Assembly (NCBI GenBank): GCA_030141605.1
Contig: JAQGDQ010000457.1
Coordinates: 1 to 64,000, forward strand
Source of the DNA: Tubiluchus corallicola
Taxonomy: Eukaryota; Animalia; Priapulida
Length of the DNA stretch: 64,000 bases
Direction: 5' to 3'
Position numbers and translations under genes: made by a program. Under the pieces are notes generated by a model. The model worked only from the letters and a program-made list of their open reading frames with translations, was not told where the DNA came from and did no database searches. The stretch's first letter is position 1. Each line of letters opens with the position of its first letter. This document shows positions 8,462 through 64,000 of this stretch, one piece after another.

Positions 8462-8499
8462 TTTGCGTTTATGTGGAATCTTCATTAAGAGAAACATAA

Positions 8500-12527: not shown

Positions 12528-12550
12528 GGAAGAACAGCTCTGCCCGCTAT

Positions 12551-13306: not shown

Positions 13307-14219
13307 GCATAGGAAAATCAGCTCGATAAATGCTTACAAAGGAGTTATTATTGTAAGGAAGTCGATAAAACGGAAACCTGAAGACGTTTTCGTTGTTCTT
13401 TTTGAGAACTAGCACGATAATACGATACTATGTACGTATGATAGTACGTACTATCTACAACTAATGTACAACCAAACCTAAAGTATTAGGTGCAATGCAC
13501 TGTCACTAAGCACTTTAGTAGACAATAACTTCAAAATCATAAAAGATTTCACAAAAAATTTTAATCACCACGAGACAAAACCTGACCGCCAGTTGGTTTT
13601 GTACGCATAAACGCAGAGCGAACAAAAACACGTCTGCTCTCAACAGTACCTACAGCCTGACCTCTGCATTGAACATTAACAGACCTCTGTCTTATAAAAA
13701 CTGCATACAAACATGAGTTTAAAATAACAATTCCGAAACTATTCAATCCAAATTTTCAACTTCAGGATGTGTGCTGGACTCTGGAGTGTAATAAATGCAC
13801 ATGGTAAAATAGGCCGAAACAAATTAGACTTTGGAAAAGACTTTAGAAAACCACGAAGCCATGAAAAAAACTTTGGAAAAGAAGCCATGAAAAACGATTT
13901 AATCTTCATTGAAACCTGCCCGAACTTTTTGTGGAAACTTGCAGTATCAAATAAACTTCATGACATCATTCTGAATAACAGAAACACAAGCGTGTGAGAT
14001 TTGACAAAATAAGTAAAATTTATTGAAAGTACGACCTATTGGCTAGACAGCCAGATACAGCCATTTAGACTGGTAGAAAAACAGCTGGACAAACTTACAG
14101 ATAGGAAGACAGACAGGTAGAACCACAAAGTACAACAGTCAAATGAATACAATTTCAATTGATATATCTAAAATGGTATATTATTAGTAGTATTATTAGC
14201 TAAGTAGACGGTGCGTGCA

Positions 14220-15203: not shown

Positions 15204-15529
15204 AACACTCTTTAGGCACCGACGAAACTTTTATATATATAATGCGAAATGCTTCTGATTCTGCTAAGCAAAATAACGAATTACTGTCAGCCTTCAACTA
15301 ATTATAAAAGTCATCAGCTAATGGTTAGAATTTGCAAAAAAAGAACAATTTTAGTAATTCGAAGAACAATGTACATTTTTCAAATGATTGTGATGAGGCG
15401 TTTAGAATTTTAACAAATCGCTGCTGGCATAGAAATTGAAGAGAATGCATTATCGTGTTTTAACATGCTTGACTGTTTAAAGGAACATTTTGAAATCGTA
15501 CACATTAATTTCCGTGGTTTATACATAAC

Positions 15530-33000: not shown

Positions 33001-36000
33001 TTCCTGAAAACCACACATCCGTGAAACTTCATATTTCGTGATTTTACCTAAAGAAGCACTTCATAGTCAAAACTGTATGCAGCTACATGTTGTCTCAATT
33101 AACTACTTTTGTCCTTTTAGCTAAATTAAATATCTAGTCTCTTCTGTGTTTTGTCTGTTTACTATAAAGAATGTTACTGTTATTGTTACTTATGTTCTAA
33201 GGCTGTTACAAGATTTGCGGTTCCTCGTGAGGAGTCTACACCCACCCAAAAACCAGGTCCTACCATCTCTGTGGTAGAGGAGACCCCATTTCCGTTGCGT
33301 AAAGACAACACGAATCAGCAAGGTACTGATGAAAATTCTCTCCATGCAGTGTCCGCAGAGAAGCAATGTAGTGTTGAAGGTACGCTGTTTGCTAATTTAA
33401 TTAGATCAGTGGTCTTCAACCTTTTTTAATGTCGTCCACCCCTAGTGGTGATTAAATATTTCAAATCTGTGTTTAATCCCCCACCCCCCGAAAAAGTCTC
33501 ATTAAAAATTTCACGTTTTTAATATTTCAAATCTATGTTTAATATCTCATTTCTGTGACTATGTAAACAGAAAAAAGCAGTTTCTCTTATTTTTTATTTA
33601 ATTTTTACATATTCATCCATATATTTACGCACCTCATCTCAAGAGGCTCAAAATACACAAAGATAACATTAAGCGTGCCATTTAGACGCATTTTCCGTCA
33701 CTAAAATAAAATTGCAGACAATGTTTGCAATATTTTGTACGGTACCAATAAATAAAACAAATAGTTATCCTTTAAAAAAATCAGTGGCTTGGCTGCTGTT
33801 GCACTTGTCTGCTATTAGGTTGAATCCGAGGTTTCACACGATTTTCAAGTGCAGCTCCTCGCATGAGAGGAGCATGGTAATGATTAGATATCAAGAACTA
33901 TCCTAATTACTAAGGAAAGACGTTATCAACTGGTTTACGTAATTGTGACATTAGTCGTGGTATAGATTTTGAAATTTGCTCATTAATGACTGTATTTAAG
34001 TGCACATGTGTTTTACATCCCAGCAGCATATTGAAGTAATTTTCAGTGAACCACAAAAGTTTTTATATAACCTTTTTCATTTTGTTATATTGTATAATAA
34101 TCAATAATAATAATAATCTTTTTTATTTATGTTGCCACTCACGCACAGTTATAATACAATTAATTTGGAAAAATGTGAAGAAAGGGCAGCGAAAGCCCAA
34201 TTGGTCATCTAGTCAGCTGCCTTTTCGTTGGTGATGAACATTTTTTATAGGCGCTGTGCTACAGTGTATTAGTGTTAGTACTGTATTAGAGTTAGCACTG
34301 CTTGTAATAAAGATTTAATTGCTACGAATGACATTAAATCGATATGCTTATAACATGTTAATACAATTCATACACAGTAATAATAAGTGCATAACAAAAA
34401 AAATCAAACAAGAACTGAAAATAAAAATCTAGCAATGTAAACATAAGAACAATGGCAACTGAAATATACTTCATAACACAAGCATAATTCTTAGTCAAAA
34501 AAAATAAATTATCTTGTAAATAATAGAACTGAGAATCACGTTTATCTATATATTGGTATATTGAAGTATATTAAATTGTGTGTTAAATTTCATGCACAGG
34601 CATACAGAAGTTATAATTTACATAACAAAATATACAAACAAACAAAAATGTTTACAAACAAAAAACAAAACAAAACTTTTATATTGTTAGATGTTACTGT
34701 ATCACAAGCAGCTCACAATTATAAGTTTCTAAGTTTTCAAAAAATTATGCCATGGTAAAGTTGTCTAGAGTAACGTTTGCTTTCAGATACACCTGACAAC
34801 GTTGCATCAACTTCCGTCTTCAATCAGCCTACTCAAATGTTGGTCGGCGCTCCTAAATTTTCCGATGATGAAGACGACGATCAAGCAGATGAAGATGACA
34901 CTCTGAGAGCATCAGTATGTTTTAGATGGATTCCATTTTTAATCATGTAGCCGTCATTAAAAATGCAATTGCTGTATTTCAGACATTCTGTTGTTTATAC
35001 AGGAGTATTTCCCATGACAATGCTTAGATAGTTTTGTATAGTCCAGTGGTTCCCATAGTAGCGGTAAATTACCCCCTGGGGGTAATACGTTTTTTTGGGG
35101 AGGTAACGGGCACCCCTCTGAAAATTTTTAAAACTTCGCTCGGAATGCATTTTACGTTGTTTTCTCCTTGAAGAGACTGCCTACAACAACAACACCTGGA
35201 AATTTATTTATGTCACGAGCAAACATAAATAATTTTGCTTGCTTGTGGCATATACGTGTGTTTACTTTTTGAGTTGGAGAAGTAGTACTAGGTGGGGGGT
35301 AATGGACACGACCGGGTTTCCCGATTTGGGTAACGGTCCGAGAAAGTTTGGAAACCACTGGACTATAGTCTTAGATGAACTTTTTTACCACTGTCATGTC
35401 GATTTTTGTTTTTCTTCTATTTTTTGCTTTCTCTTTGTACCATTGTAATTTTTTAGTTTTCTTTCATTCTCTCTTCTAATTTCTGTGCTACTCGTGCAAT
35501 GCCACTTTAGTATATGCAGCACATTGCGCATTACAATTTTTTGATCAAGTTACAATTTGTAGAGCTTATTAGTCTTGGACCTGGTGGAATCCCAATAAGT
35601 CTGTCTGAGCTGTCTTATGAATTGAGGACCAATTCCGTAATTTTCAAATGGCCAACAAGTTTAAATGGTGCAAGCGCTGGATTCTTTAAATAAGGGATTT
35701 ATGGTTTTGCTCTACGCATTTGTTGTTTGGAACGTGACAGCACTGCAAAATTTTCAATTTTTCGTTTACGTTAATTCGTTTGTTATTATTTTTAGAAAAC
35801 AAGAATGTTACTAACCCAGACACATTTTGTTGCTCCTATGGGTGACAATGAAGATGATGCCATTTTAAACAGCAAAACTCAAGCACCGATGTCAGATGCT
35901 TTGCAAGCCGAAACGCAAAATTTTTCATCAGACGACACTGACCGGGCCATGCTGAATATGGAAACTCAAGTGCCACCTGAAATTTACTCTAAAGTGCAAC

Positions 36001-39000
36001 ATTACGACACGCCAAGACCTGTAACTAATCTAGCTGACTCTACAATTGACGGCGATTCTGCAGAGAGTGATAAAGATAAAACTTATTCAGAGCAGCCAAC
36101 AATTGTATGCAACATCACCGATTCACAAAGTAAGAAACCAATGAAAATTTTCACTACTCCTACATTATCTTATGATGATAACTCAGGGCAGGAAGATGAG
36201 GATGCTCACATATTCAATCAACCGACTCAGATGTTTGGCGATGATGGTAGGGTGTTGGACAAAAACGATGCAAAATCGTCAGATGATGAAAGAATTTTTG
36301 ACCAGCCAACTATTGATCCTTCTGATGTAATGGAAACTCAAGATGATGTTGACGAAGGCTTACTAGGAGCTGCAACCCAGTTTGTAGCGAAAGGAGATGA
36401 AAGTGAAGAATCGTGGGACCAGCCAACTATTGATCCTTCTGATATGATGGAAACCGAAGATGATGTCGGCGAAGATATGCTGAAAGCTTCAACCCAGTTT
36501 GTGGCCAATGCTGATTCTCCAACAATAAGTGAAGGTTTAGCTGAGAGTGCCGATACCTTGGAGAGTAACGATCGAGAAAAACAAAATATTGTAGAAGGTA
36601 CCAGTTTGATGGTTCCAGATACCCATCTGGTTAAAACATCTTCTAGTGGTTTTATTCTGGAAGAGAAATCGGAGAAAGAGCGTAAAGCTGAGGTTGATAA
36701 AATTGACGATTCAATTGATACCACTTGCGATTCGGATGAACGACTACTTGATGCTGAAAAACTGATGTTGAGTGAAAACGATACGGACGCGAGTCATGTC
36801 AATGAAAATAGCACAATGGAAGATGTGGCGTTGCATTTGAGTGAAGAGAGTTCACAAGACCTTATTGCGGAACTCAAAGAAGACGAAGGTAAGGAAGCAG
36901 AATCGGCTGATAATAAGGATTTGCCTGAATTGCAGGACTTTGCTGATCGTATAGTTTCAGATAAATCTGCACAACAGAAAGTAACTAAACAAGAGCAAAT
37001 TGTAAATGCCGTAAAACTGATAGATTCAATGGAAGATGACGCTGTTAGTGTCGAAGATAAAGGTATGCTTAATGGAAACGAAGTGAGTGAAAATGAATTA
37101 TCCAAGGAAGAAAATATTGATATTCCGACCACATCAGGTGATGTTAAAGGGACTTATCCAGGTTCTGATCCAGAAAACATTAAAACTGCCAAAGAACTTT
37201 CTTCGGAAACTATTCTTAATGCCAGTACGCCAAGCAATAAAGTGGAAACTGCTTCTGCTACATTGGCCCAGAAGCCAGTTGTCTTCAGCAGCGATGATGA
37301 TTTTTCATTTTCTGTGAATGCAGAAACTCGTCAAGCGGCAGCTGATCAATTAGAACTTGGAACACAGAAAAGTGTTGCCTTGACTCGGGAAGACACGGAA
37401 ACATCTGCACTTGAAAATAAAGAAGATAGAGAATTGCTAGATGAAAGATTGCAGAAAAAGGCAAACGAAGACGATGACACTGAAACACAGGCATACAGAC
37501 AGACGCGTGACAAAACGAGCGGAGAAATTGCTGAAAAAGAGGTTAGAGTCTCATCCTTTTAAAGGAAGTTTGTTTAATGTTATTGACTTGCCTCTCATGA
37601 AAGTTCACATTCTGTGTAAAACTAAACAACTTATATCCATATTAAAGAGAATAAATGTTCTAGAAGTTCCCTGCATATTGCATGTTTAGATGGTTTGGCA
37701 GTTTGATAGGGAATGCAAAACATTTTCATCTTATATTTTAATATTATTATACTGTGCTCAATTGACTTTTATATGTGAAACCACTAAATAAATTTACAAT
37801 TCTATCATCCTCTGCTTTTGATGTATTTCTCTAACATGGAGAACGTTCAACCTGTTCTTAATGTTTAGCAGCGTATACTTTATCATTATTTTGTATATTC
37901 AACAGGATATCAGCAAAATCCCAACTGCGACATCGGAAGTACAAGACACTGAGGAAGAAATAAGTCCTACCGATGATTTAGAAACTCAGGCTTATGGTAT
38001 AGAGGATGAGATGGAAATCCAGGCATACAAACAAAGTGGAGAAGATAAGGATACAGCAGCTTCAGATGCTAGTTGTGAGGTAGGTATATAGGAGTCTTTG
38101 TATTAACAATTGCTGTTATATTCTTCTCTGAGTTTTGAGTAGATTGCTCTTAAGAATTTATAACAAGGAAAAAACAGGCAGACTGATTTATTTGTAGCCA
38201 TTTTTTTAACAGTGCTGCAAACATTTGAAAATCTTCTAAACCAACAAAACAAAAAACATTAAATGACTTTTTTAATATAGGTTGTTGAGGATAGCCAGCC
38301 ATCCCAGGATGAAGATATTATTGCACCCATTTTGCCAGGCTTGGACAAAATGATTCATCGTCACGAAGTACAAGCGAGTGCAGTGGTTGGAGGTGAAACC
38401 GTTCCTTCAAAAACTGCGGTGAACATTCAAATTTTTTTAGTTTTTCATATTTAACTATTCATATTCATTTTCATATTTCATAATATATGAAATTTGTAAG
38501 TTTAACTGTTTGAAGATTTTTTCAAGTTTTTTTTTATATTTCTTGTAGAAACTGGATACCACAGCTGGTAAACATAAACTTGATGCACCTGGCAGTGATG
38601 CAGTCGTGGATGAAAGCAGATCTGTTGTTACAAAAGGCAGCATTCGGCAAGCTAGAGGTAGAAGACATAAGAGAGATGATAAATTAAATGCTGATACTGC
38701 AGAAAGTAGTTCACTTAAAAGCAATGTGAAGTCACTTGGAATAGAGGATGGATTAACTGATAATAAAATCGCATCTGTGGCAATTGTTGATTCTAATGAA
38801 AACATTGCAAATGTTGAAGCAGTTACTAAAACCTCGCAGAAAGCTAAAAGGGGAAGGAAGTCAAAAAGAGGTACTCAGGTGAGGAAAACAATTGAAAGCA
38901 GAGAAAAAGAGGTGTCTTCTGGTAGGCAAGTTCCTAACGAAGAGCCTGTTAATTCTGACATGACTACTATAATCTCACCGCGAAGAAGAAGGGGCAGACC

Positions 39001-42000
39001 ATCTAAAGTTGCCTCTGAGCCAACCTCACTAACACAAGATAATAAAGATGAAACCACTAATGCTATAGAGGATGTCAAGAATATACGGAGTAGAAGAGGA
39101 AGAATATCTAGAGCTGCATCTGAACAAATGAAAAATGTTAAAGGAGAAATTGTACCTGAGATTAAAGAATTTAGCGATGAGCTCCCTGAAGTAAAAGCTG
39201 CGCAGAAAAGTAAGAGGGGACGACCATCCAGAGCCGCTTCGCAGCTAACTAAAGAGGCAAACATCGTTGAAGAAGTTGTACCTGAAGCAAAAGAGACTGT
39301 GTCTGAAGTTAAAGATTCTAGTGAAGTGATTCCCGATGTTAAAAGTCTGCAGAAAAGTAAGAGAGGAAGACCTTCTAAAGTTGTCTCTGATGAGCTAAGT
39401 AAAGTAACGCAAAATCTGGAAGTGGAAAGCAACCTTGACAAAGATGATTCTAGTGAACTTTCACAGGATAGTAGGAAAGGAAGATCCTCGAAAAGGAAAT
39501 CTGCACAGAGCGAACTAACACAGAACTCTGAAGAAATGTTTAGCAAGAAGCTTTCTGTTGCTAAGATTTCAAAGGAAGGCAAGAAAGACAGCTTGTCCAA
39601 AAGTGCTCCTGTTGTTGACAAAGCAGTTCAGGAGAAAACCGCAGTGGATGATGCGTTGCAGGGAAATAGGCGCAAATCGAAACTGGAAGAATCTGTGATT
39701 TCTGCTCGTCCTACTAGAAGAAATACTCGACATGGAAAGCTATTACCTGTTGCAGAAGAAGCTGCGGCAGTCAGTGATGTCATAGAAACGAGTCGAGGGA
39801 AGAAAGTGCATTCTAGCAGTAATAAAGAAACTGAACAAGCAACTACTGCACAAAGGAAGGAAGACCACCACATAGCAAAAACTAAACATGAACTTGTTCT
39901 ACAGGGAAAAACAGAAGCCCATGTCAAGAATGATCAGTTAGCTTATCGGGTAGATGAATCAGAATACAGTCCACCAAAGAGAAGGAAAGGAAATGCCACT
40001 CTGATTAGTGCGCGGGAAACTAATTTAGATAGCCCGTCTCCGAAAAGGATTCGGATGAAGAAAGCAGTAGCAGAAACTGTATCTTTAGGTGAAGAGATTG
40101 CTCAAAAAACTGTAACCAATCCTAGAAGAAAAACACGCAGAAGCAAAATGACAGACTCTGAAATATCCATTCATGAAGATGAACAAGAGCTTTCAAGTCT
40201 TCCCATTGTAAGACATTCCCCGATAAAAGAAGTACATGATGTACTTCCTCCTGATACTGGTGATACTACATTAGTGGCCAGACCTCTTCGAAAGAAAAGA
40301 AATAGAAAATCAGCAGAACAAGAAGAGCAAGCAGTTGTAGTAACTCCTCCCACAACGAGACGAACAAAACATGTAGTAAAAACAGAAGAGATTTCTGGCC
40401 TACAGAAACCATCGGCCAGTTCCTCGAGAAAAGGGGCACAGCATCTCGCAGCATCAGAGGAAGATGATAAACGTGAACCAACAGTTGTACCTCTGAAGAG
40501 AGGAAGAAAAAAGATATCACCAGTGAATTCTGAAACAGTAGTAATTGGACATGATACAACAGGTTTAGCAACAATTCCTCCAAGACGAGGAAGATTGAGA
40601 TCGCCATCAACCATAGCAAAATCTATAGTGACACCTTCTAAAGTTATACTCAAGTCAATAGCCAGTCCTCCCAGGCAAGGAAGAAACGCACTGCCAGCCG
40701 TCACAGTTAAACTTGAAGTTCCGCCATTGGACGATGAACCTAAGCCAACTTCTACGAAGAGGGGAAAGAGGAAGTCAGAAGCAGTAGGCGAAGTTTCAGT
40801 ATCAAGTGATGAAAATAAAACTGAAGAAGGCGTCAGTCCGTCAAAGAGGGGCAGGTTAACGAGAGCAGCAGTTTCAGTTGTACCTGAACATCTATCAATA
40901 GCAGAAACCAGTCATACACGAACAGGCAGGAAAAATCAATCAGCAGTGGAAACTAAAGCAGCAACAGTGACTTTGCCTGATGAGGATGATCTGAAACAAG
41001 TAGCAAGTTCTCGTGGGAGGAGGCGAAAGACTGTGACATCGAAATCAGTGACTGAAGACACGTCTAAACTAGCTTCCAGTCCATCTAGAAGAAAAACTCG
41101 GGGAACAGCAGCAAAAACTGAGGAAAGTGTAAGTTCAACAAAACGAGGTAAAAGTAAATCAGCGACATCTGAATTAACTCGGACTGTTGTGTCTCCTAAA
41201 GTTCTTGCATCTAAATTAGAAGACGGTTCTTTGCCAAAACGGCGACGGCGAGGACAGAAGGTGGTTCAGGAAGTTGCAGTGCATGAAGTGAAGGATGAAA
41301 CAATGCCTATTAAGAATCTCAAGTCGAACCGAGTAGATGTCGAGGTCGACGAAGATGATAGTGTACCATCCAAAGCAGAACGTACCAGAGGAAGAAAACC
41401 AAAAGTACAACAGTCAGAGACGCCAGTACGAAAGAATCGGCTGAAGCAACAGGCGACATCGCCAAGAACAGAATCACCATCATTGAGACGTTCACTTGCA
41501 GAACTCAAGCCAAAAGTTATGTTTACTGGCATTATTGACCCAGCATTAGAGAAGGTGGGTTCCTGGCTTATTTACTAATCACAGTTTTTGTTTTTGTAAA
41601 ATTGTGCAGTAGAGGGAGAAGTAGAAGTAAAAAGCAATTCTATCCATCTTTATTCCATCTTGTTAAATATTTCTCAAAAAGAAGGAATCATTTTTGTGCA
41701 TTAACTCGTTTTAAAATTGCTTCAGCTAATTTTTGCTTTCTGTTTGGAAAAGCCATTATGTCTGATATTACAGGTTAAACAAATCAAGTCCCTATCAGCA
41801 TTTAAAACAAAATTAAAATTACTAATATTAACCAGATATGAAATATCATCACACCAGTACGACAACATACACACTAATTCAGAATTTATATATCCACGGC
41901 CATATTAATTAAATCATATTTTTTTCATTTTTTTGTGCATAGTTGCAAATATGTTTGATTTTATTCGTCGTTACTTTCCATTACTGCACAGTAGTTTAGA

Positions 42001-51552: not shown

Positions 51553-54500
51553 TTATGTTATCTCTGATTTAATGGATTCGGGTTCGACACTGATGTGTGC
51601 GATGAATCGAAGACGAAGCTGCAGCGACGGGCGTAACCTTTTGATAATTTTCTCTGTCTCGGCCTAAAAATGTAATAAATGTTTGTTAATAATAATGTTC
51701 AAAACTAAACAAAGTGTTCTTTTTCTTTTACAAGTGCACAAATTGCTGTCAAAACAGGTTATGTCTAAAAGTGTTTAAGTTCTTGTTTATCTGAGTGAAC
51801 GATTGATTGATATTAACTCATATAATTATATGATAAGCCAAGCAGATGTTAAATGTCCACCATTGTAGCAGGTTTTGACAACGTCTTAGAAGTTGAGAGT
51901 TTGAGTTTGATGCAAATTAACACCAGTGACATGATGGTGTCCGAGTGGTGATGAAGGTGTTTGGTGCATCATTGGTGTCAACTTTTTTCATCAACATTTA
52001 AGATACAAATGGTCTTAGAAGTTGGGAGTTTGAGTCTGATGCAAATTAACACCAGTGACATGATGGTGTCCGAGTGGTGATGAAAGGTGTTTGGTGCATC
52101 ATTGGTGTTAACTGTTTTCATCAACTGTTAGGATACTTTACTGACTTACTTTTACACCGTCTCCAGTGAACATGTATTTAATGTGGTACAACAAGTCACA
52201 GATTGGATTGATGTGATGAAGATGTTCGTTTAGCTTATCAACCTTCTCCAGCATCTCGTACAGGCTTACAGTCAGCTGTAAACAAAACAACATTACAGGC
52301 TTACAGTCAGCTGTAAACAAAACAACATTACAGGCTTACAGTCAGCTGTAAACAAAACAACATTACAGGCTTACAGTCAGCTGTAAACAAAACAACATTA
52401 CAGGCTTACAGTCAGCTGTAAACAAAACAACATTACAGGCTTACAGTCAGCTGTAAACAAAACAACATTACAGGCTTACAGTCAGCTGTAAACAAAACAA
52501 CATTACAGGCTTACAGTCAGCTGTAAACAAAACAACATTACAGGCTTACAGTCAGCTGTAAACAAAACAACATTACAGGCTTACAGTCAGCTGTAAACAA
52601 AACAACATTACAGGCTTACAGTCAGCTGCAAACAAAACAACATTACAGGCTTACAGTCAGCTGTAAACGAAACAACACAACTTAATAGATATGCATATTA
52701 TCAGTAATTAGGACAATAGATTTATGAAGAGTAACAGCAGGCATCTTTGAAGGAAGAAACAGAGGAATAATCGCTCTAATATTTTTCACAAATTGGACTC
52801 TCAATTTCAAAACAATGCACTGCAAATGGACATTCGATCAGTGTTGATTATTACAAACTATTATTAATATTAGTAATACGAAGGTAAGCTTAAAATTGGC
52901 ACTGTAAAGTAGACATTTAAGCTCAAACAGTGTCATAGTGTCTCATTCTCCTAATACAATGTTTTCTACAACAGTACTGATCATAAATAGAAAATGTGCA
53001 AGGGCGTATGAAGACTTTACGACGCCCTAAGCTGATAGTTCAGTGCCACCCATTTCTATTGTGAATTTATGCTTGTTTATGTAATGAGCAGATTAAACAA
53101 TTACTTGTGGTGTATTAGAAACACTACAAATCTAGTTTCTACGTGTCATTATTAATTACATGTATTTCCATAGCACTTATATTCAAGCAGTATGTGCAAG
53201 TGCTTGTATAATACCTTCAACCTGTTCGTAATAAGGTACTTATATAAACGGTAAGATCTGTAACTGCCTGTGGTGTGTTATGAAATGTGCCCTTTACATG
53301 AATATCAGTATGCGTATTTTCCAAAGTCCGAGAATAGGAATTTTTTCTAAAATGTGACGCCCCTGAAAATGTGAAATTCCTCAATGTTCGCATTCGATTT
53401 GAACGAGTTTTTTAGTTCTAAGCTAAGTTTGTTAAGGGGGTCTCCCACCAATTATAGGCCGTGATGATATGTATATACTGTATATAGGCATTCCCAGTTT
53501 GAAGAAAGGACTCATGCAAATTTAATGAAATCTCAGTGACAGTACGTAGGCAGACTTCCTGTACAGACTTATCATAGACAAGCGTGTGCAGAACACTTTC
53601 CCAAACATTGAGATTGTTGGCATCCTTCTGTCTCGGAAGACAATGGAGTGTGCGCCAAGAGAGTCAGTTATTGATGGATCTGCAGCGTTGACTGTGGCTG
53701 AGCAGTGTGATTCTTGAACCACTGGAGTGGCCTCTCCAGGGTGCACGCCTGGGCAAGGTGTATGTAGATCCTGAGTTGCCCATACAACAGGAACCCCCTC
53801 TCTTCCTCGATGGTGTAGTCCAAAGGAAAGCGGAGCGATATGTTTGGCACCAGGTTGGCTGCAGGAGCTGCCGGAGTCAGTGAGCATGCTGCACTGGTCC
53901 GCCTTCAGGGCTCCACTCCTGATTTGGAAGGTTTACTCCTCTACACATGGCCGTTGGGTCATTTGACCTCCTCCGCCCTCTAGCCGTTGGCTGCTTGTGC
54001 AGCTCCTCCGCCTAGTATCGAGATACAGTGTGGGCATCCCGCAAGCCTACAGCACCTGGTATTCCTAGGCAGTCACCCATCCAAGTACTAACCAAGCTCT
54101 ACGTTGCTTAACTTCGGTTATCAGACGAGAACCAGCGTTTTCAGCGTGATATAAAAACATTGAGATAGCTCTACGCATATACCTTATTTTGATAGTATGA
54201 AACTGCAGTGGAGAGCACTGCTTCTCAAAACTCAAATTAATTGAGAACCGATTATGGACATCCACGAAGCAGAAACAACTTGTAAATCTGGCTATTATGA
54301 GATATACTGCGTGAATTGGACTTTAATGACATCATCAGTGACTTTGCCACACGAAAATCAAGAAAAGTGTCTGGTCTGTAATGCTTGTAACTCTATCTGT
54401 TTTCTGATTTGAACTATATTTACTTCTTAGTTATACTAGACGTTTTCATGAAGCAATAAATAATTTAAACTGAATTTCGCTGCATAAATTATTCATTAAG

Positions 54501-56526
54501 CACAACTTGTGTTCATTTCATTTCGTGTTCATGCATTACATGTTACACCATTGGAAGAATAGTCTCCGTTCAGTATTTCCTAACTAAAAGTGTCCTATTT
54601 ATATATTTGGATTTAGGTTACTAATCTGTGGTGTGTGCAATGGGGGAGTTGGAAAGGGGGCCTCTCTTTCAAGTGGGCCGCAGGCCTAGGGTTACCATTT
54701 GTCCGGGTTTCCCCGGACACGTCCTCTTTTTGGGCCTCTGTCCGGGCGGGTTTTCAAAAAACCGGCAGTTTGTCCGGGTTTTGCCTCAATCCGTAAGTAT
54801 GTACGAACGTTGCAAACTGCAGAGGCATACAACAGTACGAGACAAAGAAGAGCTCATTAATTTTCAATACAAGATGTTGCTAACATCTCAAAATGCAACC
54901 CTTGTAAAAGCTTTGTGTACATATTTACTGAACAAAAGTAAGAGATGCGCACATCACTATGGGTCACACGACTCACACCGCTGTCGATACTCGGCGTATT
55001 CCCTAACGACTTAAAATGACGTCAGCTTCCTGGAGCCATTTTGTTTGTTTTTATGTGAATTTTTTTAAGTTTGTATAGTTTCGCTGTTTTGCAGTTTTGA
55101 GCAACTGGTAAAAGTTAATTAGAAAGTAGCAATGCCGAAACGACAGTGTGAATTTACAGATGAAATGAAGGCCAAGTACCCGTGTTTTCGCGCAGGTCAG
55201 TATTACCGGGAAGCCGAATGCTCGACATGTGGTCCTCTTTTTCAACTCGGTCAATGTGGTAACCCTACGCAGGCCTCCCATGTGCTTAATCCAGCCCTGC
55301 CAGTCAGCGCTGTGTTCACTGTCATAAAGCAACAAAAGCAACATCTACAAAAGTCTAAATGCCACACGACAACTCACATCAAGCAGACAGCGCGTTCTTT
55401 CTTCACGAAATCTTTGTAGGAAAGGTCCTACCAGGCTGCACAAATAGAGAAACTGTGCTTCTGTTTGGATAACAGGGAGCATACGTTCTTTTATGAACCT
55501 AAAGAATAAAAATAATTTTCTTTTAAGCAATTCTCCAAAACAGTGCAATGCTTCTACACACATACATACTGACATGCATAGAACATTCATGTATAGAACA
55601 GTCATGTGTAGAACATTCATGTGTAGAACATTCATGTATAGAACATTCATGTATAGAACAGTCATGTATAGAACATTCATGTGTAGATGTATAGAACAGT
55701 CATGTATAGAACATTCATGTATAGAACAGTCATGTATAGAACATTCATGTATAGAACGTATTCATGTATAGAACATTCATGTATAGAACATTCATGTATA
55801 TAACGTATTCATGTATAGAACATTCATGTATAGAACGTATTCATGTATAGAACGGTCATGTATATAATGTATTCATGTATAGAACATTCATGTATAGAAC
55901 GTATTCATGTATAGAACGTATTCATGTAAAGAACATTATACTTCTGTACAGTCATAGTATAAATTAATTTATGTCTAACAAACAGTTTATTGTAAAATTA
56001 ACTGGTTGAATACTTAGTTTAGTGCACAGAAAGATTTTGCACTTTACACAAAAGTGAACAATGTAATGAGTTATTACAGCCAATTGTAATCCATTGCCAT
56101 TTAGGTTACTAGGGGCAAAAGTGGAAAAACGTTTCAGTGTCTCCGGAGAAGTAAGAAATTCAGGAATGATAAATGCTTGGTAAAAGAAAGCAAACTAAAA
56201 CCTGTAGCCTGACAGAACTGTCATATGTATAAGAAACCGACCAGACGGTCTAGTCTAGTGGTAATGCGTCTGCTTTCCGTCTGGGAGGTCGTGAGTTCGA
56301 ACCAGCGGCCGGGTCATACCAAACACTTTAAAAATGGTACCTGCTGTTGCCCTGCCTGACGCGTGGTATTTAGGGTAAAAGTGGGGTAATAATAGTCTCT
56401 GTTATGTAGTTGTAGGTTGTTATTTACAGTCGGCGATAATAGCTCTTTGAGCTAATGTTAACTGTTGACCCAAAAGCCGACTTTAAATAAAGATTATTAT
56501 TATTATTATTATTGTTATTGTTACTA

Positions 56527-56617
<91 letters not shown>

Positions 56618-59600
56618 GAATTGTATAACCCTTATAGTTCTTTGATTATGGCTTGGATGTCTCTTTAAAACCACACTGTTAATGGCAAAGGAATAAAAAT
56701 AAGAAACAGAAATAGTTCACTTTGTGATTGCGAACCACCTCAGTTTTTCACACACTGAAACTGCAGCCGGCTTTATGGCAAACATGGTCAATTCACAGAC
56801 ATGCAAACCACTGACAGGAAGATATAATGAATTTATGTTTTTATAAAGGCACACGTGGACACATGCCTAGGTTATGAATAGTAATATTTATGAGTAGTAT
56901 TGTGACAGTGGCCCAGCATTTTGAAAGGAATCGAAAAGTGGCAATTTGACGAAAAACTGATTATTATAATTTCTGAAGCTCGAATTTGCGAAGACGTCAC
57001 TGTACAGTTCGCAATAAATTACAGATATTTACTCCTCTTGTTCACAAATGTGCTAGCAGTACATTACTACTGCAGTACTAAATGTATTATAGTAATGCTT
57101 ACTATTAATTTAATATGTTTAGCTAGTTTCAACTAAAACAAAAAAGTAAACGATTTCTAACATATTTTCTAAAAACTGAATAAGAACGAGTTTAGTTTAG
57201 TTTACTAGAGCAGGGGTGTAGAAATTGCAACCCGCTGAGAGAATTTGTGCGGCCCGCGAAGAGATTTGTTAATCTAATGAAAGTGCGGCCCGGGTGATTT
57301 ATTGAGTGTATCCAGGCTGAAGTCCGTGCCACGATCCCAAAGATAGTGCGGGTAGTTTTTTCTACTAGATCGGATGCCATTAACCCTTACAAGACGGTTG
57401 TAGCTTAATGTCACTGTACTACACAGACTGTGTGATACACATTACTAATATGCATTGTAATGAAATTACCACTATCTGTCCTGAAAGTAGATATATGGTT
57501 TGTAATATAAATTTTAATAACTTCTAAAATAGTTTCTTGAGTGTAGTAGTAATGATATGACAGATCAGATGCAGAAAAATCGTTATTAGGTCCTACTGTA
57601 CTTGGCTCCTTGACGAAACTGCTTGTGGTCCACAGGAATTACGGGAAAGTTTAATGTGGCCTGGCTAGTCAGATAATTTGCACACCCCTGTACTCGAGTA
57701 AGCTAAGTGTGCAGAAAAGTAAGTGTTACCCACATTATAGCTCAAAACTGGCAGTTAAATATTTCACAAAAAAATCAAAGCAAGACATGAAATTACGTTA
57801 TTATTGCGATCTTTTTTGCAGAAACGCTTATGAAATAGTATGTAATAATGAAATATATGAAATAGTAGAGCGAAAACAGAGAAAAATGGGTGGAGGACTA
57901 CTCACTGTGGGAGAACACTGAGCTGTCCAATGCTGCAATGATGCCAAACCATATGTGCAACGGCTAACAGGTAAGCACCGTAAACTTCCTCCGAAGTGTG
58001 GTACATCATCGCATACTTGAATACGTCCAACCTAAGCGCCTTGCTTTCTATCATTGTGAGCTTCTGTACGTGTTCAATAAGACGTGTATTCAACACAAAC
58101 CTAAAACTGTCCTGTAAACAAGAAATAACATTTTACCACTGAAAACAATAATTGTTTAATGCAGGGATGAGAATGACACATTGCAAAAAACTCTGAAACA
58201 GGCTGGGAGTTTTGGGGCCACCTAGGCTCCTAATGGAGTTCAAAGGGAGCCAGCAACAAATTGCAATTTTGTGACCATAGAGAGCCTCTAAGTGGACTTA
58301 AATATCAATTACCTTGTTTCATGCATAATTTAACATACCCAACTATCAAGGATACATGATACCTTATTGTCTCAAAAACGCCTAAGTACTGGCCGCTCCT
58401 CTGCAAAAGTATATAAAAACTGTCTGCAATTGACTCAAATAACTCTGCACAATTGATTCTATATTTTTATACATAGAGATATACACGTGGTTATACTGAT
58501 GTACGTGATGTAAACAAAGTGACGGCCTGCCAACTAGCGGTCAGCTTGTGAAATAATGTACTGGGTCCGTAAAAGTTTTCTCAGCGAATTTACGCGATTT
58601 ACAAAAACACCACTACTGGTCTTCCAAAAACTCGGAATTCCGCGTATCCGCAGAAAATTCCCATCCATGTTAATGGACCGAGGCAGGGTGATTACCAAAT
58701 CTATCATGACCTATTACCCCATTCAAAATACTAACTAGTAGTTTTAGCATGAGAAGATCACAAAAACTTGTCTTACCGGAAGAGACGTAAGTATAAGAGC
58801 AATAGCATTCATCCAACTTTCCACATTCTCACTATTCACTTGAGAATTACTGAAAAAATATAGAAAACAAAACCTATAATGCAGCTAATAAATACATTTC
58901 CCCCGGGCCTCTTATCTGTGGAATTCTTTACCAGAAAATTGTTTTCTGTTAACTACAAACTCATCTACTTAAAGAAGAATGTTAACAGGTACTTGCACTA
59001 TCAATAGTAAATTAGTCACAAGAATTGTCACCTTGAACGTCTCCAGGGCGCATGCCTGGGCAAGGTGTATGGAGTTCCTAAGTTGCGCAGAGCCTGCGTT
59101 GCCTTGGCTGCTTGTGCAGCTCCTCCGCCTAGTGTCAAAACACAGTGTGGGTATCCCGCAAGCCTACGCCAATTGGTATTCCTAGGCGGTCACCCATCCA
59201 AGTACTAACCATACTCTATATTGCTTAACTTCGGTGATCAGACTAGATAGCTAGAACTAAGTTTATCGAATTTGATATGCTCCCATTACAGCCGCTCAAA
59301 ATTTCAGATTTGATTAAAATTTGGAAACACAAGTTCTCCACATGCATCTCTCTATATTGATCAAAAACTAAATGCTACAGAAGCTCACTTTTTCAAAACC
59401 ACATCTAGCAGTCCATTGCCCACTATTTCACTTGAGACTGGTAGTCCCATCACTTCTACGCAAGTCGAGTGCAGAACGTGAGCCGGAGCACTGGAAAATT
59501 CACTGAAGCGCCAGTCTATGCCCGTCATTTGGGAACTGCTGCTCATAGCTAAGTGCAGAATAAGGAATAGCAACGTATAATTTTAGACAATGTGCAAATG

Positions 59601-62263
59601 TAGATTACAGGGGGAAAACTCATTGTTATTAAGTTTAACTGACACACACTCTTACTGTAGAATGCAAAAGTAAAAAATAATTGTTGACATAAGAGCCTTT
59701 GCAGGAGTGATTACGAAACACAGTTTACTTACGGTGGCTGCTAGCAAAAATGTCAGAACAGCAATATGTTGGTAACTGCAGAAACATAAGGTGACAAATG
59801 CAAGAGCTGAATGCATTTAGTACGGGAAAGAAGAAACAATAACAGGTACCAGACTAAAAATGTTTTTTTTCTTTGGAAACTACTGGCAGAACACACAAGA
59901 TGGCCAAGTTTTGTCTAACTGCTTTACTACTTTTTTGTTAAAACCTGGAATTGTACATTGTAATAAGGTGCTGCCATCTATGTGCTAATCTTGTTACATT
60001 CTACCAGCTGACTTACCTTCAGTATAATTGTATGGTTCAGTGACTACATACACGCTGGTCCTCTCCCTATCTAAAATTAATGGTTGTTGTGAAGCCTGTG
60101 CAACTCTGCATAGGTCAAGTTCTATACCTGTATACTGGCTGTGAAACAGGTTTTACTGACTGCTTTTGCTTTCTAGTTTTTGCTCAATGTTCAGTGAAGC
60201 AGTTTAGCTACTCATGTTTTCTGTAGTTTAATAAACACTTTTATGTTGTGTGCAGTGCAAATATTTATTATAGATTTCGGGTTACTATCCATACTTCTCT
60301 GTGTCTAAACTCAATCATAACAAAGTGACTGAACAACAACTTCAAAAATGACTTTCACACCTAGAGATGCTTTGCCCATGTCTGAGTTGACACAGCTTCC
60401 CACAAGAGTCACTAGGGGAACATTTTGGATTGCCAAGACGTTTACCAAAAAAGAAGACACCCAGTTTAACACCAAGGCAGTTCTTTAACAATCACTGATA
60501 CTATCATTAACAATCAACGCAAAGTGTACACGTATACTAGAAAAAATGGTAAAAGATTTTTTGGTGTCAAGAACGAGAATGACAACAACATTAAATGGCA
60601 TCTTGAAAAAATATCGATCAAATAAAGGCTTCTTTCTTTGTTTTCATAATGCAGCTAAGACGACAGAGCCACAGAACTACCAAATATTCTAGAAACACCA
60701 CACAAAATAGCTGTGCTTTTTTACTTTTATACAGAATAATTTTAGGTTTTAATGTCTTCGTTTAAAGGATACCATCAACCAGCTGGCTGACCAATTGGCT
60801 GTAGTACTCCATACCAGGTGTCCAATCGATGTCGTCAATCGGACGTTGCATATATGAGCTGTATGCGTCCGTCACATATAGCTTGTTCTGCAAATCAGAT
60901 TCCTTCTGTGCACCTTTGAGAGAAAAAGTTGGGCACTAATTAAAGTTTTTCAAACTGGAACAGATGCATGTTGCAGAATTACGTTGTTTTCGTGATAAAA
61001 TACTGTTAGCAAGCTCTTTCTAGTCACCAATAGGCATCGCCGTTCCCCAAATTTACGTCAAATTGCAAACTGCAATATAGAGAGCTCAAAAATAATTAGA
61101 ATTTGAGATGCCAATGCGAACTTTTGTCAGGAAGCCACATACTAAATTCTATCCTGGCAGCAGGTTAAGTCTAAACTCAGTAACATTTACCATCTGAAAG
61201 TTCATATAATGAAATAGTATAGCAAATCTGTAATTTGATTGAATTACGTATTTACTGATTAGTATCATCAACACTAATCTCAAACTATTAATAAAAGTGA
61301 TAAGCTTTGAATAGTTAAAAAAGGACTGAGCCTCATGCCATTTCACATTAAAGGAAGATGGGATGATTTTTTTTGCTCATTTTGACCAATGATCTGAAAT
61401 GTAGGTGTTATAGGTACCTATATGACAAGTGCAAAATGTTTCTAATATTTAAACTTTAGCTTACAAATTTAATTAACGGGCTGCGAGCATTGGTAGCAAT
61501 GATGATCATCATCATCATCCAATGAATCACATGTCCAGTGACATGATTCTGCTCACCTCCCTATGCCAGGACTCCCTACACGCTGCAATGCCCCAAGTGG
61601 ATTTATTTCTAAGGATCAATGCCGAAGTGTTTAGATCTTTCTGTGCAAAATCTAAATGTGTTAACATTTGTCCTCCTACACATTTTTTAGCTGGTTCTAT
61701 GGCTTGTTGAAGAGCTATCTTCACTGGAGTATCATCAGGTAGTCTAAGTATATGCCCAATCCATCTTAAACGATGTCTTTTTATTTTTCTTGTCCAAGGT
61801 TCTTCTTTTATTTTTTCATATAGATCTTTGTTTGAAATTTTCTTTGGCCATCTAATACCCAAAATGTTTCTGTAATTCGCCTTTGAAACAATGATGTTAT
61901 CGCTGGACACGTTTTCCAATGGTGGGAATCTTTTAAGCGCGTCTTGCATCTATATGCCAAACCAAAGATTGTGATATTACATTAGCCGCACTGCAGTGCA
62001 AAAATGACGTGGAAACAAAAAATTCACACAATTTAAGAGCAGAATTTCTTATTTCAAAGTTGATCACACAAAGGCATAGTTTATTTCAAATCATAGATCG
62101 TTAATTCGTCAGTTTCAGTTACAGCTTGATATTATATCCTGTTTTTACATAATAATGTACATACCATATATAGTTGCCAGCAGTTTCTTCTTTAGTGATG
62201 GTCTATCTCTCAATCTTTTCTCATAGTAATGCAAAGTGTTGTACAGATATGTTACAGGATGAT
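51553..62263 (-). CDS. MED23: Mediator complex subunit 23, last eight coding exons (5' part outside the window)
   Basis: Exons 62263-62165, 60913-60773, 59548-59389, 58849-58777, 58111-57906, 55498-55378, 52275-52150, 51663-51553 join in frame. Peptides HPVTYLYNTLHYYE, DWRFSEF...AHVLHSTCVEVMGL, WMNAIALILTSLP, WHHCSIGQLS, LVGPFLQRF, PICDLLYHIKYMFTGD and LRLRFIAHIS match the MED23 C-terminus. Confidence 0.93.
52261..52677. repeat. 35-bp tandem repeat (12 copies) of the MED23 intron/exon boundary
   Basis: CAGGCTTACAGTCAGCTGTAAACAAAACAACATTA x12. Confidence 0.96.
53545..54380 (+). pseudogene. hAT transposase C-terminal (dimerisation domain) remnant split by a SINE
   Basis: ...VQNTFPNIEI | IALRIYL...NCSGEHCFSKLKLIENRL...LDFNDIISDFATRKSRKV, with a stop and a frameshift. 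Confidence 0.75.
53615..54152 (-). mobile_element. 5S-RTE SINE copy
   Basis: Family match; perfect 12-bp TSD AAACATTGAGAT at 53603-53614 and 54155-54166. Confidence 0.92.
54687..55235 (+). mobile_element. 5' fragment of a hAT (Blackjack-like) transposon with the transposase start
   Basis: Terminus TAGGGTTACCATTTGTCCGGG, subterminal TGTCCGGG repeats, and MPKRQCEFTDEMKAKYPCF...CSTC at 55132. Confidence 0.6.
55575..55937. repeat. 15-17-bp minisatellite (CATGTATAGAACATT)
   Basis: Direct reading. Confidence 0.9.
56240..56616 (+). mobile_element. tRNA-headed SINE with Meta-domain-like core and (ATT)n tail
   Basis: A-box TAGTCTAGTGG, B-box GAGTTCGAACC, core GGTCATACCAAACACTTTAAAAATGGTACC; second copy at 18118-18588. 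Confidence 0.82.
57211..57690 (-). mobile_element. hAT MITE, sibling of 32517-32982
   Basis: TIR CAGGGGTGT; TSD TACTAGAG / TACTCGAG. Confidence 0.9.
59031..59243 (-). mobile_element. Degenerate, internally deleted 5S-RTE SINE
   Basis: Partial 5S head plus body segments. Confidence 0.8.
59549..60772 (-). other. U12-type GT-AG intron of MED23
   Basis: Donor GTATCCTTT (60772-60764); branch-like TTCCTTAT about 10 nt before the acceptor AG (59550-59549). Confidence 0.85.
61348..61490 (+). mobile_element. Terminal fragment related to the Kolobok-like element at 910
   Basis: TTAA-AGGAAGATGGGATGATTTTT...TTAATTAACGGGCTGCGAGC parallels 906-1048. Confidence 0.55.
61499..61880 (-). mobile_element. 5'-truncated RTE-clade LINE fragment with (GAT)n tail
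   Basis: YRNILGIRWPKKISNKDLY...RLRWIGHILRL, followed by GGATGATGATG. Confidence 0.8.
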
Positions 62264-62362
62264 CTAAAAAAATGAAGTAAGAAGCAACAATTTAAATAAT
62301 CGTGTAAAGTTGTCCACGCCAAGGATAAATTTACATTTGCTAATGAATTCAATATCACAGAC

Positions 62363-62636
62363 TGTTGTTGTTGTTGTTGGCATCGTTCTGTCTCGGAAGA
62401 CAATGGAATGTGCGCCAAGAGAGTCTGATCCTTGAACGTCTCCAGGGCGCACGCCTGGGCAAGGTGTATGGAGATCCTGAGTTGCCCAGACCGCAGGAAC
62501 CCCCTCTCTTCCTCCCTGGTGTAGTCCAAAGGAAAGCGGAGCGATACGTTTGGCACCAGGTTGGCTGCAGGAGCTGCCGGAGTCAGTGAGCATGCTGCAC
62601 TGGTCCGCCTTCGTGGCTCCACTCCTGATTTGGAAG
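62363..62636 (-). mobile_element. 5'-truncated 5S-RTE SINE (no head), (CAA)n tail
   Basis: Family match to the body and tail. Confidence 0.88.
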
Positions 62637-63549
62637 TTATCACGGACTATTATAATCATAAATACCGGTCTAAATAAACTATGTAAGTAGAACTATAGGT
62701 ACATTTAAGGAAAATAAAAATTCTTACGCTCGGAGATATACTGCGCTGTTGCATTTATCATCTAAAGATGAAGTACTCAGCCATTATGTAAGGTCAAAAC
62801 AAGGGCAAATGAAAAATTTATTTTTTGATACTTTAGCTTTCACAAATTCAATATCTGGATTCGACCGTTTTATTACTGTTTTTGTGCCACGCGAAAAATG
62901 GAGACGATTATAAATAAACTGAACTTTATGAATATATTCACATCTCAATCAGAAATTTTTAGAAAAATGAAACTGTGAGTTTACTTTTGCATTCTTTAAG
63001 CCCCCGAGCTTACAACTTTTAGTCTTGAGTATTTTAAGCATTTTTTAATATTCATTATTAAGTCTGGAAATTTTACTATAAATTTATTTGCACTGAAAAT
63101 AAATAACTTTTGCCCTGAGAATGTAAAATTTACTTGCTCTGGGAGGGCAATGTACCTCGTACACCTATGAGCATGTTAAAGTTCGTGCAATAACATTGTG
63201 TACATGTTGTCATTAGGAATAGAAATAATAATTAAAAAATACTCATCCATATACTCTATGTGATACAATGTTTAGCTTTTTAATAAGTTTGTGATTCGTC
63301 AACTATACGATGAGATTCGTACTATGAACTTAATTACGCATAGCAATATCTGTAAGGCGCTGACAAATCACTTGTTGACAATTTCTTTCAATAACAACTC
63401 ATTTGGAACCATTAACAAGTTGTATTCTTTTTAAGTCTCAGTTGTAATGGATTGTGTTTACCTTAATCACATATAATCTAAGATTAGTTATTTTTCATCA
63501 TTTTTGTTCTCCAAGCAGATTTTTCAATCATAAGCAAACATCTTACTGG

Positions 63550-63625
63550 AACCTAGCCACGGGGGGGGGGGGGGGCAAGCCAGCCCTACTCAGTGCCGGT
63601 CCCAAACCCGGATAAATAGGGAGGG
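63550..63625 (+). ncRNA. Twister ribozyme 3' cleavage product (P1 type, P1 5' strand missing)
   Basis: AA-CCTA-GC-CAC[P3]GTG-CCGG-TCCCAAAC-CCGG-ATAAA-TAGG-GAGGG. This parallels the rice Osa-1-4 twister as recalled: AA-CACU-GC-C..G-CCGG-UCCCAAGC-CCGG-AUAAA-AGUG-GAGGG. Confidence 0.8.
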
Positions 63626-64000
63626 TTAGGGTCAGAAAGGGCATCCGCCTGTAAAAACTGCGCCAAAACCTTCTATGAATGAGTCGGTGAGACTTAAAGG
63701 TAAAGTCCACAAAGAAGCGGTCAGACCCGCTCTAATCTATGGGCTGGAAGCAGCTTCTCTAAAGAAGACCGAAGAGAAGAAAACGGGTGTGGTGGAGATG
63801 AGGGTGTTGAGATGGATGGTGGGAATAACAAGAAGAGATAAAATTAGAAATAATAATATCAGAGGAACAGTAAAAGTAGTGGAAGCCTCGCAAGATTGCG
63901 ATGGTATGGACACCTGAAAAGAAGAGTCGGTGAAGATCATGTGGGAATTGAAGACATAAATGAAGAGATGGTCAACAACAGTAATGCGTGGAGAAGACTC
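63550..64000 (+). mobile_element. Bipartite (internally deleted) RTE element: twister-bearing 5' UTR fused to the RT C-terminal region
   Basis: 5' UTR 63550-63675, then VRLKGKVHKEAVRPALIYGLEA...EMRVLRWMVGITRRDKIRNNNIRG...RLRWYGHLKRR; runs off the window end. Confidence 0.8.

What the first reader, a model, noticed from the sequence alone, without database searches (positions are those of the whole stretch)
63550..64000. Mini-RTE retroelement that starts exactly at a twister ribozyme cleavage site
Twister cleaves U/AA. Homology here begins precisely at AA (63550), preceded by G and with no P1 5' strand, as expected if self-cleavage defined the RNA 5' end before reverse transcription. P2 (CCTA/TAGG), the P3 base (CAC/GTG), P4 (CCGG/CCGG) and TCCC/GAGGG are intact. 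One pseudoknot base is mutated (GC to AC at 63606), and the P3 5' arm appears replaced by a G15 run. About 125 nt downstream the element jumps directly to the RT C-terminal region. This points to a ribozyme-headed, non-autonomous bipartite retroposon with no Pol III head, whose activity would depend on flanking sequence restoring P1.
Basis: partly seen in the sequence, partly recalled or inferred. Interest (0 to 1): 0.75.

Follow-up and report, generated by a model that had tools for sequence, protein, structure and literature searches.

The report
Twister-headed mini-RTE retrotransposon copy
This is one copy of an abundant short jumping element, cut down from a full-length RTE-type retrotransposon, whose relatives begin at the base where a "twister" self-cutting RNA is predicted to cut, so they likely free themselves from host transcripts, as shown for a blood-fluke element, while this particular copy's cutter is likely dead.

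Summary
63550-63631 is a type-P1 twister fold (Rfam 28.9 bits, E 4.6e-4, below gathering 67.2). Contigs from the organism's sequencing runs show a very abundant family: summed depth about 8e5 against 52-90 in the flank, with no drop across the main junction. The displayed 5' ends sit at the AA behind differing flanks, and 99% of depth has the intact pseudoknot G at 63606. Two contigs carry the undeleted ORF start behind the same head. Full-length relatives also have twister heads, one with an 11-nt target-site duplication ending at the AA.

Corrections: the junction is at 63685-63689; there are three deletions; the G-run is a variable family trait inside P3, not damage; P1 is dispensable in published mutagenesis. 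This copy's pseudoknot mutation likely kills it. Its own duplication lies beyond the window; cleavage is untested.

Every ingredient is published (Perere-3 twisters, R2 SIDEs, bipartite RTEs). I did not find the combination in print, but this scan noted it in other genomes.

The parts
63550..64000 (+). Copy of an internally deleted, non-autonomous RTE-type element; it runs off the window about 25 nt before the RT stop codon
   Evidence: Depth step and family variants; loose ends behind 63999 complete the RT C-terminus and stop
63550..63551 (+). AA: 5' end of the element and predicted 3' product of twister cleavage (N|AA)
   Evidence: X1 depth 66-90 upstream and 9,331 at 63551-57; 10 contigs lose homology before 63550 (agreement 0.5); listed pieces start at 63550 in X1 and X4
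63550..63631 (+). Type-P1 twister fold lacking its own P1 5' strand: P2 63552-55/63617-20, T2 63556-57/63606-07, P3 63558-63595, P4 63596-99/63608-11, T1 63601-04/63622-25, GAGGG 63621-25, P1 3' strand 63626-31
   Evidence: Rfam RF03160 E 4.6e-4; pair check; assignment of T1 and T2 follows the Rfam consensus and recalled structure numbering
63561..63575 (+). G15 run inside P3; about 5-17 G among copies, in many of them after CACT
   Evidence: Indels of -7 to +2 at 63560/63561 and loose ends at 63561-63571
63606..63606 (+). Copy-specific G>A that breaks the T2 pseudoknot pair with C63557; predicted to inactivate this copy
   Evidence: 98.9% of X1 depth has G; PMC5113685: substitutions at the equivalent G30 abolish activity (position mapping inferred)
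63632..63685 (+). Rest of the parent's 5' UTR with its ATG (63679) and first two codons
   Evidence: 2 X4 contigs leave behind 63685 and read on in frame to an N-A-R motif at codons 10-12 (translated by eye); NAR lies in the first 20 aa of 9 of the 18 full-length relatives examined
63685..63689 (+). Main junction; removes about residues 3-840 of the roughly 987-aa endonuclease/RT ORF (about 2.5 kb)
   Evidence: (RT-type loose ends before 63689 in X3 and X4)
63687..63889 (+). RT C-terminal remnant 1 (P0015 residues 841-909)
   Evidence: 71% aa identity; 78.6% nt identity to L008 over 192 nt
63890..63947 (+). RT remnant 2, after a 16-nt frameshifting deletion
   Evidence: 86% nt identity to L008
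63954..64000 (+). RT remnant 3, after a deletion of about 90 nt; deleted and undeleted forms both occur in the runs
   Evidence: 30-residue gap; loose ends behind 63947 and before 63954
62148..62291 (-). Context: nearest MED23 exon (profile 989-1029). The element likely lies antisense in the next intron upstream
   Evidence: Pfam Med23 hits on 6 of 64 frames tested, in order along the minus strand

Best explanation
This is one copy of a high-copy family of internally deleted RTE-type retrotransposons that begin at the predicted cut site of a twister ribozyme and likely spread without a promoter, by cutting themselves out of host transcripts and borrowing the full-length parent's enzymes. SHOWN: the twister fold; a large family sharing the main deletion; displayed 5' ends at the AA behind differing flanks; an intact catalytic core in about 99% of depth; the same head on an undeleted ORF start; twister heads on full-length relatives, one with a target-site duplication ending at the AA. 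INFERRED, by analogy with Perere-3 and R2 SIDEs: host read-through transcription; cleavage at N|AA; binding of the retained 3' end by the parent's endonuclease/RT; target-primed reverse transcription; a new flank that supplies a chance P1 strand and tunes, but is probably not required for, the next round of cleavage. The RT remnant is likely an RNA recognition handle rather than a gene. This copy is likely a dead end: T2 is broken, there is no P1 in register, and it lies antisense to the probable host gene MED23.
For: Fold. Family size: 3,412 X1 contigs laid on 701 bases; summed depth 5.9e5-9.0e5 from 63588 to 63995 against 52 for the exact-match flank contig. Shared deletion: X1 depth 8.8e5, 9.0e5 and 7.9e5 across 63677-63697; contigs 63656-63779 and 63641-63800 bridge it. 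5' end: 9 of 11 displayed rows at the AA; one is a truncated copy at 63611 and one is the head's own sequence. Core: only 63587, 63606 and 63636 differ at majority level in the head, all away from this copy. Parent. Relatives: twister-P1 just upstream of the ORF in 4 of 12 loci scanned (L022 E 8e-13, L030 4e-11, L059 7e-8, L021 1.5e-5), plus a core-only match in L044; L059 has an 11-nt duplication ending exactly at its AA, and 0 of 3,100 control 11-mers matched. Remnant not under protein constraint: parent-like letters at five sites make up only 3.8-4.7% of X1 depth, and a TGG>TGA stop makes up 13.3%. Literature: PMC8501958, PMC3414825, PMC5786205.
Against: No cleavage or transcription was shown. 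No target-site duplication was seen for any copy of this family, because the window ends before the 3' end and no genome is held. Loose-end rows are consensus over contigs, and most rows were hidden (107, 254). Summed depth is only about 9e3 at 63551-57 against 8e5 in the body; clipping at the G-run may explain this, but the share of full-length copies is unknown. Depth rises toward the 3' end in X2, X3 and X4, which may mean many truncated copies. Summed contig depth is not a copy number. The family is young (this copy differs from the majority at about 9 of 451 sites), so conservation of the core is weak evidence of selection. The parent's head rests on 2 contigs. L022 and L030 gave only 6-7-nt duplication candidates away from their element ends. 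The RTE clade label is recalled, not from a tree with named references.
Confidence: 0.75

Rival explanations
1. The same element, but cleavage strictly needs a flank-supplied P1, so only copies that land behind a matching sequence become masters.
For: PMC8501958 proposes that the duplication forms P1 and affects activity. The P1 3' strand UUAGGG could pair with AT-rich flanks. T precedes the AA in 5 of 9 consensus rows.
Against: PMC5113685: P1 is not essential. PMC8501958: all NAA triplets cleave, and cleavage occurs, inefficiently, without P1. 5 of 9 T is unremarkable in a window of about 37% GC, and the rows are consensus letters.
Confidence: 0.12
2. The head holds an internal Pol II promoter that starts transcription at or near the AA; the twister is an inherited passenger.
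For: PMC5786205 notes that LINE 5' extremes drive transcription and that bipartite LINEs are probably Pol II products. Core conservation in a young family proves little.
Against: The boundary falls on the exact scissile position here and in a distant relative with a duplication (L059). Twister heads persist in relatives only 42-47% identical in protein. PMC8501958 shows cleavage for the homologous arrangement.
Confidence: 0.08
3. The deleted copy was amplified as DNA, in a tandem array or inside a DNA transposon, rather than through RNA.
For: No target-site duplication could be checked in this family.
Against: Upstream flanks differ from row to row (agreement 0.46-0.73 in rows of 4 or more contigs), and depth falls to single-locus level right outside the AA.
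Confidence: 0.03
4. A single decayed LINE copy that suffered deletions after insertion.
For: The window holds no second copy.
Against: The joined form dominates in runs of two studies, and parent-like letters make up only about 4% of depth.
Confidence: 0.02

Closest known systems
T-variant twister ribozymes at the 5' end of Perere-3 (RTE LINE, Schistosoma mansoni; Liu et al. 2021, PMC8501958)
   Same: Type-P1 twister at the 5' end; the element starts at the AA; the P1 5' strand comes from the variable flank; insertion is not site-specific.
   Different: Perere-3 is described with its endonuclease/RT ORF; this family has lost about 85% of the ORF. Cleavage was shown there and is untested here. 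Here P3 carries a variable G-run.
R2 SIDEs (short internally deleted elements) of Drosophila (Eickbush and Eickbush 2012, PMC3414825)
   Same: A 5' ribozyme joined to the parent's 3' end by internal deletion; no ORF; mobilised in trans.
   Different: HDV-like ribozyme, site-specific in 28S rDNA, and described as rare. Here the ribozyme is a twister, the flanks are dispersed, and copies are abundant.
Bipartite non-autonomous RTE elements (Bov-A, RTESINE1/2, WALLSI3, MAR4_MD; Kojima 2018, PMC5786205)
   Same: The 5' end plus the 3' end of an RTE, without a small-RNA head; the paper already links such elements to 5' ribozymes.
   Different: That paper cites HDV-like ribozymes and does not contain the word twister (0 occurrences). 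Its examples often come from the UTRs, whereas this one keeps about 310 nt of RT coding sequence in three pieces.
Truncated twisters at RTE 5' ends (unpublished note in PMC7761336, 'Martin and de la Pena, in preparation')
   Same: States that truncated but active twisters are conserved at the 5' ends of RTE-superfamily elements.
   Different: One sentence without data; non-autonomous derivatives are not mentioned in the passages read.

Membership tests
Type-P1 twister ribozyme (RF03160) | P2, P4 and T1 pairings; conserved UCCCAA and GAGGG; AA at the cut site | tested here: met
Type-P1 twister ribozyme (RF03160) | T2 pseudoknot intact (this copy) | tested here: not met
   A63606; met in 98.9% of family depth
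Type-P1 twister ribozyme (RF03160) | P1 helix in register and Rfam gathering score (this copy) | tested here: not met
   1 of 4 pairs; 28.9 against 67.2 bits
Type-P1 twister ribozyme (RF03160) | Self-cleavage at N|AA | not testable with these tools
   Needs a cleavage assay
Perere-3-type T-variant head | Element begins at the AA behind heterogeneous flanks | tested here: met
   9 of 11 displayed rows, 54 contigs; 107 rows hidden
Perere-3-type T-variant head | Target-site duplication abutting the AA | not testable with these tools
   The window ends before the 3' end and no genome is held; met only in the distant relative L059
Internally deleted non-autonomous LINE (bipartite RTE, SIDE-like) | 5' end and 3' end of the same LINE, with the ORF lost | tested here: met
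   Undeleted ORF start behind the same head in 2 contigs; RT tail
Internally deleted non-autonomous LINE (bipartite RTE, SIDE-like) | Many dispersed copies sharing the deletion | tested here: met
RTE clade | Parent has a single ORF of about 1,000 aa with AP-endonuclease then RT, and a very short 3' UTR with a simple-repeat tail | tested here: met
   P0015 and P0006; tails of L013 and L059; shown on relatives, not on the parent itself
RTE clade | Placement in an RT phylogeny with named RTE references | not tested
   No hit carried a clade name; the label is recalled from motifs and architecture
SINE (Pol III) | tRNA, 5S or 7SL head with internal promoter boxes | tested here: not met
R2 SIDE | HDV-like ribozyme and 28S rDNA target | tested here: not met
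   Twister hit; probable MED23 intron; heterogeneous flanks

The most novel reading that the evidence does not exclude
A promoterless twister-released parasite has outgrown its parent LINE about twenty-fold and seeded the genome with many hundreds to thousands of mostly intact self-cleaving RNAs. Their activity is set copy by copy by the landing-site P1 and by a slipping poly-G tract in P3. The genome is then a natural mutagenesis library for twister, and the host purges or inactivates copies in sense orientation in introns because they would cut pre-mRNA.
Probability: 0.2. Interest if true: 0.62.

Novelty: new variant of a known kind. Interest (0 to 1): 0.36.

Why it matters
The biological role of eukaryotic twister ribozymes rests in print mostly on one blood-fluke LINE. 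This family extends that role to a non-autonomous derivative in another animal, and the related loci extend it to distant full-length elements. It gives a concrete reason why RTE elements so often spawn ORF-less two-ended derivatives, a question left open in PMC5786205: a head that cuts itself free would need no promoter. A young family with many copies allows direct tests of whether flank-made P1 selects master copies and whether live ribozymes avoid the sense strand of introns. It is not a new principle.

Tried and rejected
No whole genome is held, so copies, duplications and orientation bias could not be counted. There is no second copy in the window. The whole-window Rfam scan at gathering level gave only four 5S matches. 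A 30-letter family motif found 0 loci in metagenome contigs. A twister-plus-UTR motif found 0 in viral contigs; a looser motif found 3 viral twisters, none with an RT match. No RNA holder was listed and 0 contigs of the guessed-RNA run X6 were laid; this says nothing about expression. Pfam on the remnant gave only a sub-threshold 3Beta_HSD match, rejected as chance. Minimum-energy folding of this copy keeps P2 and P4 over 63550-63626 but loses the P4 register once flanks are added; it cannot model pseudoknots and was not used. The 80-codon frame at 63675-63914 was rejected as a gene: it is out of frame with the parent's ATG, has non-conservative changes at conserved RT positions in the family majority, and has a stop in 13% of depth. 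An insertion preference for T before the AA is not supported (5 of 9 consensus rows). L044 has a twister core by pattern but no Rfam match at E 0.05. The Rfam scan covered 12 of the 80 metagenome loci, chosen for reaching toward the ORF start; the pattern scan covered all 83 loci. No look-alike stretch of this DNA was found among the scan's earlier findings.

Full report
OBSERVATION. The AA is at 63550-63551 after G63549. P2 (63552-55/63617-20) and P4 (63596-99/63608-11) pair fully. UCCC 63600-03 and GAGGG 63621-25 are present. A63606 leaves only one of two T2 pairs, and the G-run is 15 long, 63561-63575. Rfam twister-P1 is the best of 8 listed matches in 63300-64000, at 28.9 bits and E 4.6e-4, against E 0.32 for the next best. 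It is under the gathering score of 67.2 and absent from the whole-window scan. In register, the flank gives 1 of 4 P1 pairs; a 4-pair helix exists only if the N-1 base is drawn into it. P3 is not destroyed: 6 of 7 base pairs form with 63589-63595, plus GGGC/GCCC above.

RT REMNANT. A search with 63690-63884 returned 21 proteins among 56 candidates, the best at 77% identity, including full-length ORFs of 962 and 987 aa. Both carry an AP-endonuclease and an RT domain. P0015 aligns from residue 841 at 63687 (71% over 69 aa) and, after a frameshift, from 914 to 980 with a 30-residue gap. Against the close locus L008 the breaks are 16 nt at 63889/63890 and about 90 nt at 63947-63954. The window stops about 25 nt short of the stop codon, as read from loose ends behind 63999. 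Calling the parent RTE is recalled from motifs and the single-ORF layout; no hit carried a clade name.

IS IT A FAMILY? No genome is held and the window has no second copy, so I laid contigs of public runs. X1-X3 are one sample, possibly the source of the window; X4 is a second study. In X1, 3,412 contigs lie on 701 bases. Summed depth is 66-431 in the flank, where the exact-match contig has depth 52, and 5.9e5-9.0e5 from 63588 to 63995. The tool warns that this is no copy number, and overlapping contigs inflate it. I infer many hundreds to thousands of copies. Depth does not fall across the main junction, and contigs bridge it (X1 63656-63779, X4 63641-63800). At the 90-nt deletion, 77% of spanning depth differs from this copy only at two junction bases, while 5 X1 contigs leave into the undeleted sequence, so both forms exist. 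No displayed row shows an undeleted form of the 16-nt break. This copy differs from the majority at about 9 sites, so the family is young.

5' END. X1 depth is 66 and 90 in the bins up to 63543 and 9,331 at 63551-57. Of 11 displayed rows of loose letters lying before the match, 9 (54 contigs over X1, X2 and X4) place the boundary at the AA. One row stops at 63550 itself; eight are clipped in the G-run and show the head back to the AA. The letters before the AA differ from row to row, with agreement 0.46-0.73 in rows of 4 or more contigs. One row is a copy truncated at 63611, and one is the head's own sequence; 107 rows were not shown. Against this, depth at the very start is about 1% of the body's. 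Clipping at the G-run may explain that, but I cannot give the share of full-length copies, and depth rises 3'-ward in X2, X3 and X4. Other copies carry CACT followed by about 5-17 G, so the run is a family trait of variable length; short-read homopolymer error may add to the spread. G at 63606 makes up 98.9% of X1 depth, so the family's T2 is intact and the break is this copy's own.

ORIGIN. Two X4 contigs follow the head to 63685 and then leave it. Read by eye from the ATG at 63679, they continue in frame to an N-A-R motif at codons 10-12. The same motif lies in the first 20 residues of 9 of the 18 full-length relatives examined. X3 and X4 also show RT-type sequence entering before 63689. Head and tail therefore likely come from one parent, with about 2.5 kb removed; three bases, 63686-88, are unassigned. 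Letters that restore conserved RT residues at five sites make up 3.8-4.7% of X1 depth, from which I infer that the deleted family outnumbers parent-like sequence about twenty-fold. A TGG>TGA stop at 63815 makes up 13.3%, so the remnant is unlikely to be kept as protein.

RELATIVES. A metagenome scan kept 80 of 472 confirmed loci. I scanned 12 that reach toward the ORF start. Four have twister-P1 shortly upstream of the ORF (L022 E 8e-13, L030 4e-11, L059 7e-8, L021 1.5e-5), and L044 has the core by pattern only. In L059 an 11-nt duplication ends exactly at the AA (3345) and recurs after the simple-repeat tail (6216); 0 of 3,100 control 11-mers did so. L022 and L030 gave only 6-7-nt candidates away from their ends. 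These loci are 44-47% identical to P0015 and are not the parent.

CONTEXT. Six of 64 minus-strand frames match Med23 in order, the nearest at 62148-62291 for profile positions 989-1029. The element therefore likely sits antisense in a MED23 intron, where the host pre-mRNA would not contain the ribozyme strand.

MECHANISM. Most likely (0.75): read-through transcripts are cut at N|AA, the parent's protein binds the retained 3' end and reverse-transcribes it at a new site, and the new flank becomes the next P1 strand. Transcription, cleavage and trans-mobilisation are inferred. PMC5113685 (passages read) reports that any substitution at G30 drops activity below 0.2 and that P1 is not essential. 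PMC8501958 reports that G*AA, C*AA and A*AA sites cleave.

LITERATURE. PMC8501958 (abstract, introduction, section 18 part 1 of 2, sections 19 and 22, passages) establishes the twister head, the AA start and the flank-made P1 for Perere-3. PMC3414825 (abstract) describes ribozyme-headed SIDEs. PMC5786205 (passages) lists bipartite RTE derivatives and links them to 5' ribozymes. PMC7761336 (passages) notes unpublished twisters at RTE 5' ends. PMC6765202 (passages) and PMC6007223 (abstract) gave background. No supplements were read. Four searches listed no paper on a twister-headed non-autonomous element, judged from listings and the passages above. The library lacks most subscription journals, Repbase and Dfam. 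In PMC8501958, 18.6% of T-variants had no conserved domain downstream, which could hide such elements.

EARLIER SCAN NOTES. Six of the eight notes shown describe twister-headed mini-RTEs of about 180-290 nt in other genomes (one also). They are unchecked AI notes, read after my own reading was recorded, and are not counted as support. They suggest the arrangement recurs.

VERDICT. Real, and a new variant of a known kind; interest 0.36. What is particular here is the longer coding-derived body, the variable poly-G in P3, and a young family whose ribozyme core is largely intact, which makes it good test material.

Noticed in passing
window 2749-3306 (+), 8013-8463 (-), 30732-31229 (-), 53614-54162 (-); fragments 59031-59247, 62339-62636: A dispersed repeat of about 430-550 nt headed by a full 5S rRNA sequence (Rfam 69-104 bits) with a shared body at 84-95% identity: a 5S-derived SINE-like family.
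   Followed up: partly
window 10014-13333 (-): A two-ORF LINE with an open 852-aa endonuclease/RT frame and a 260-aa upstream ORF, only 23.5% identical to P0015, so not the parent of the mini-element.
   Followed up: partly
window 14220-15230 (-): An uninterrupted 336-aa frame with several EGF domains, an acidic tandem repeat and a hydrophobic C-terminal segment, lying about 0.9 kb from the LINE; possibly a retrocopy or single-exon gene.
   Followed up: no
window 22646-24004 (-): An uninterrupted 452-aa DUF4419 frame (E 1e-64).
   Followed up: no
window 35796-41578 (+): Two long low-complexity frames (588 and 1009 aa) with TQ-type and basic repeats; they resemble MDC1 from recall, with no Pfam hit for the one tested.
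   Followed up: no
window 55348-62291 (-): Six MED23 exons.
   Followed up: yes
window 61527-61949 (-): A decayed RT C-terminal fragment of another non-LTR element (tblastn E 7e-4).
   Followed up: no
L059 3345-6226: A full-length but frameshifted endonuclease/RT element with a P3-less twister head and an 11-nt duplication ending at the AA. Its twister carries the same T2 G>A change as the window copy.
   Followed up: yes
window 63611 (runs X2 and X4): A 5'-truncated copy starting at 63611 appears in both samples, with flanks of about 230 letters; possibly the same insertion.
   Followed up: no
L001-L003: Three viral contigs with type-P1 twister cores, two candidate cores in L002.
   Followed up: no
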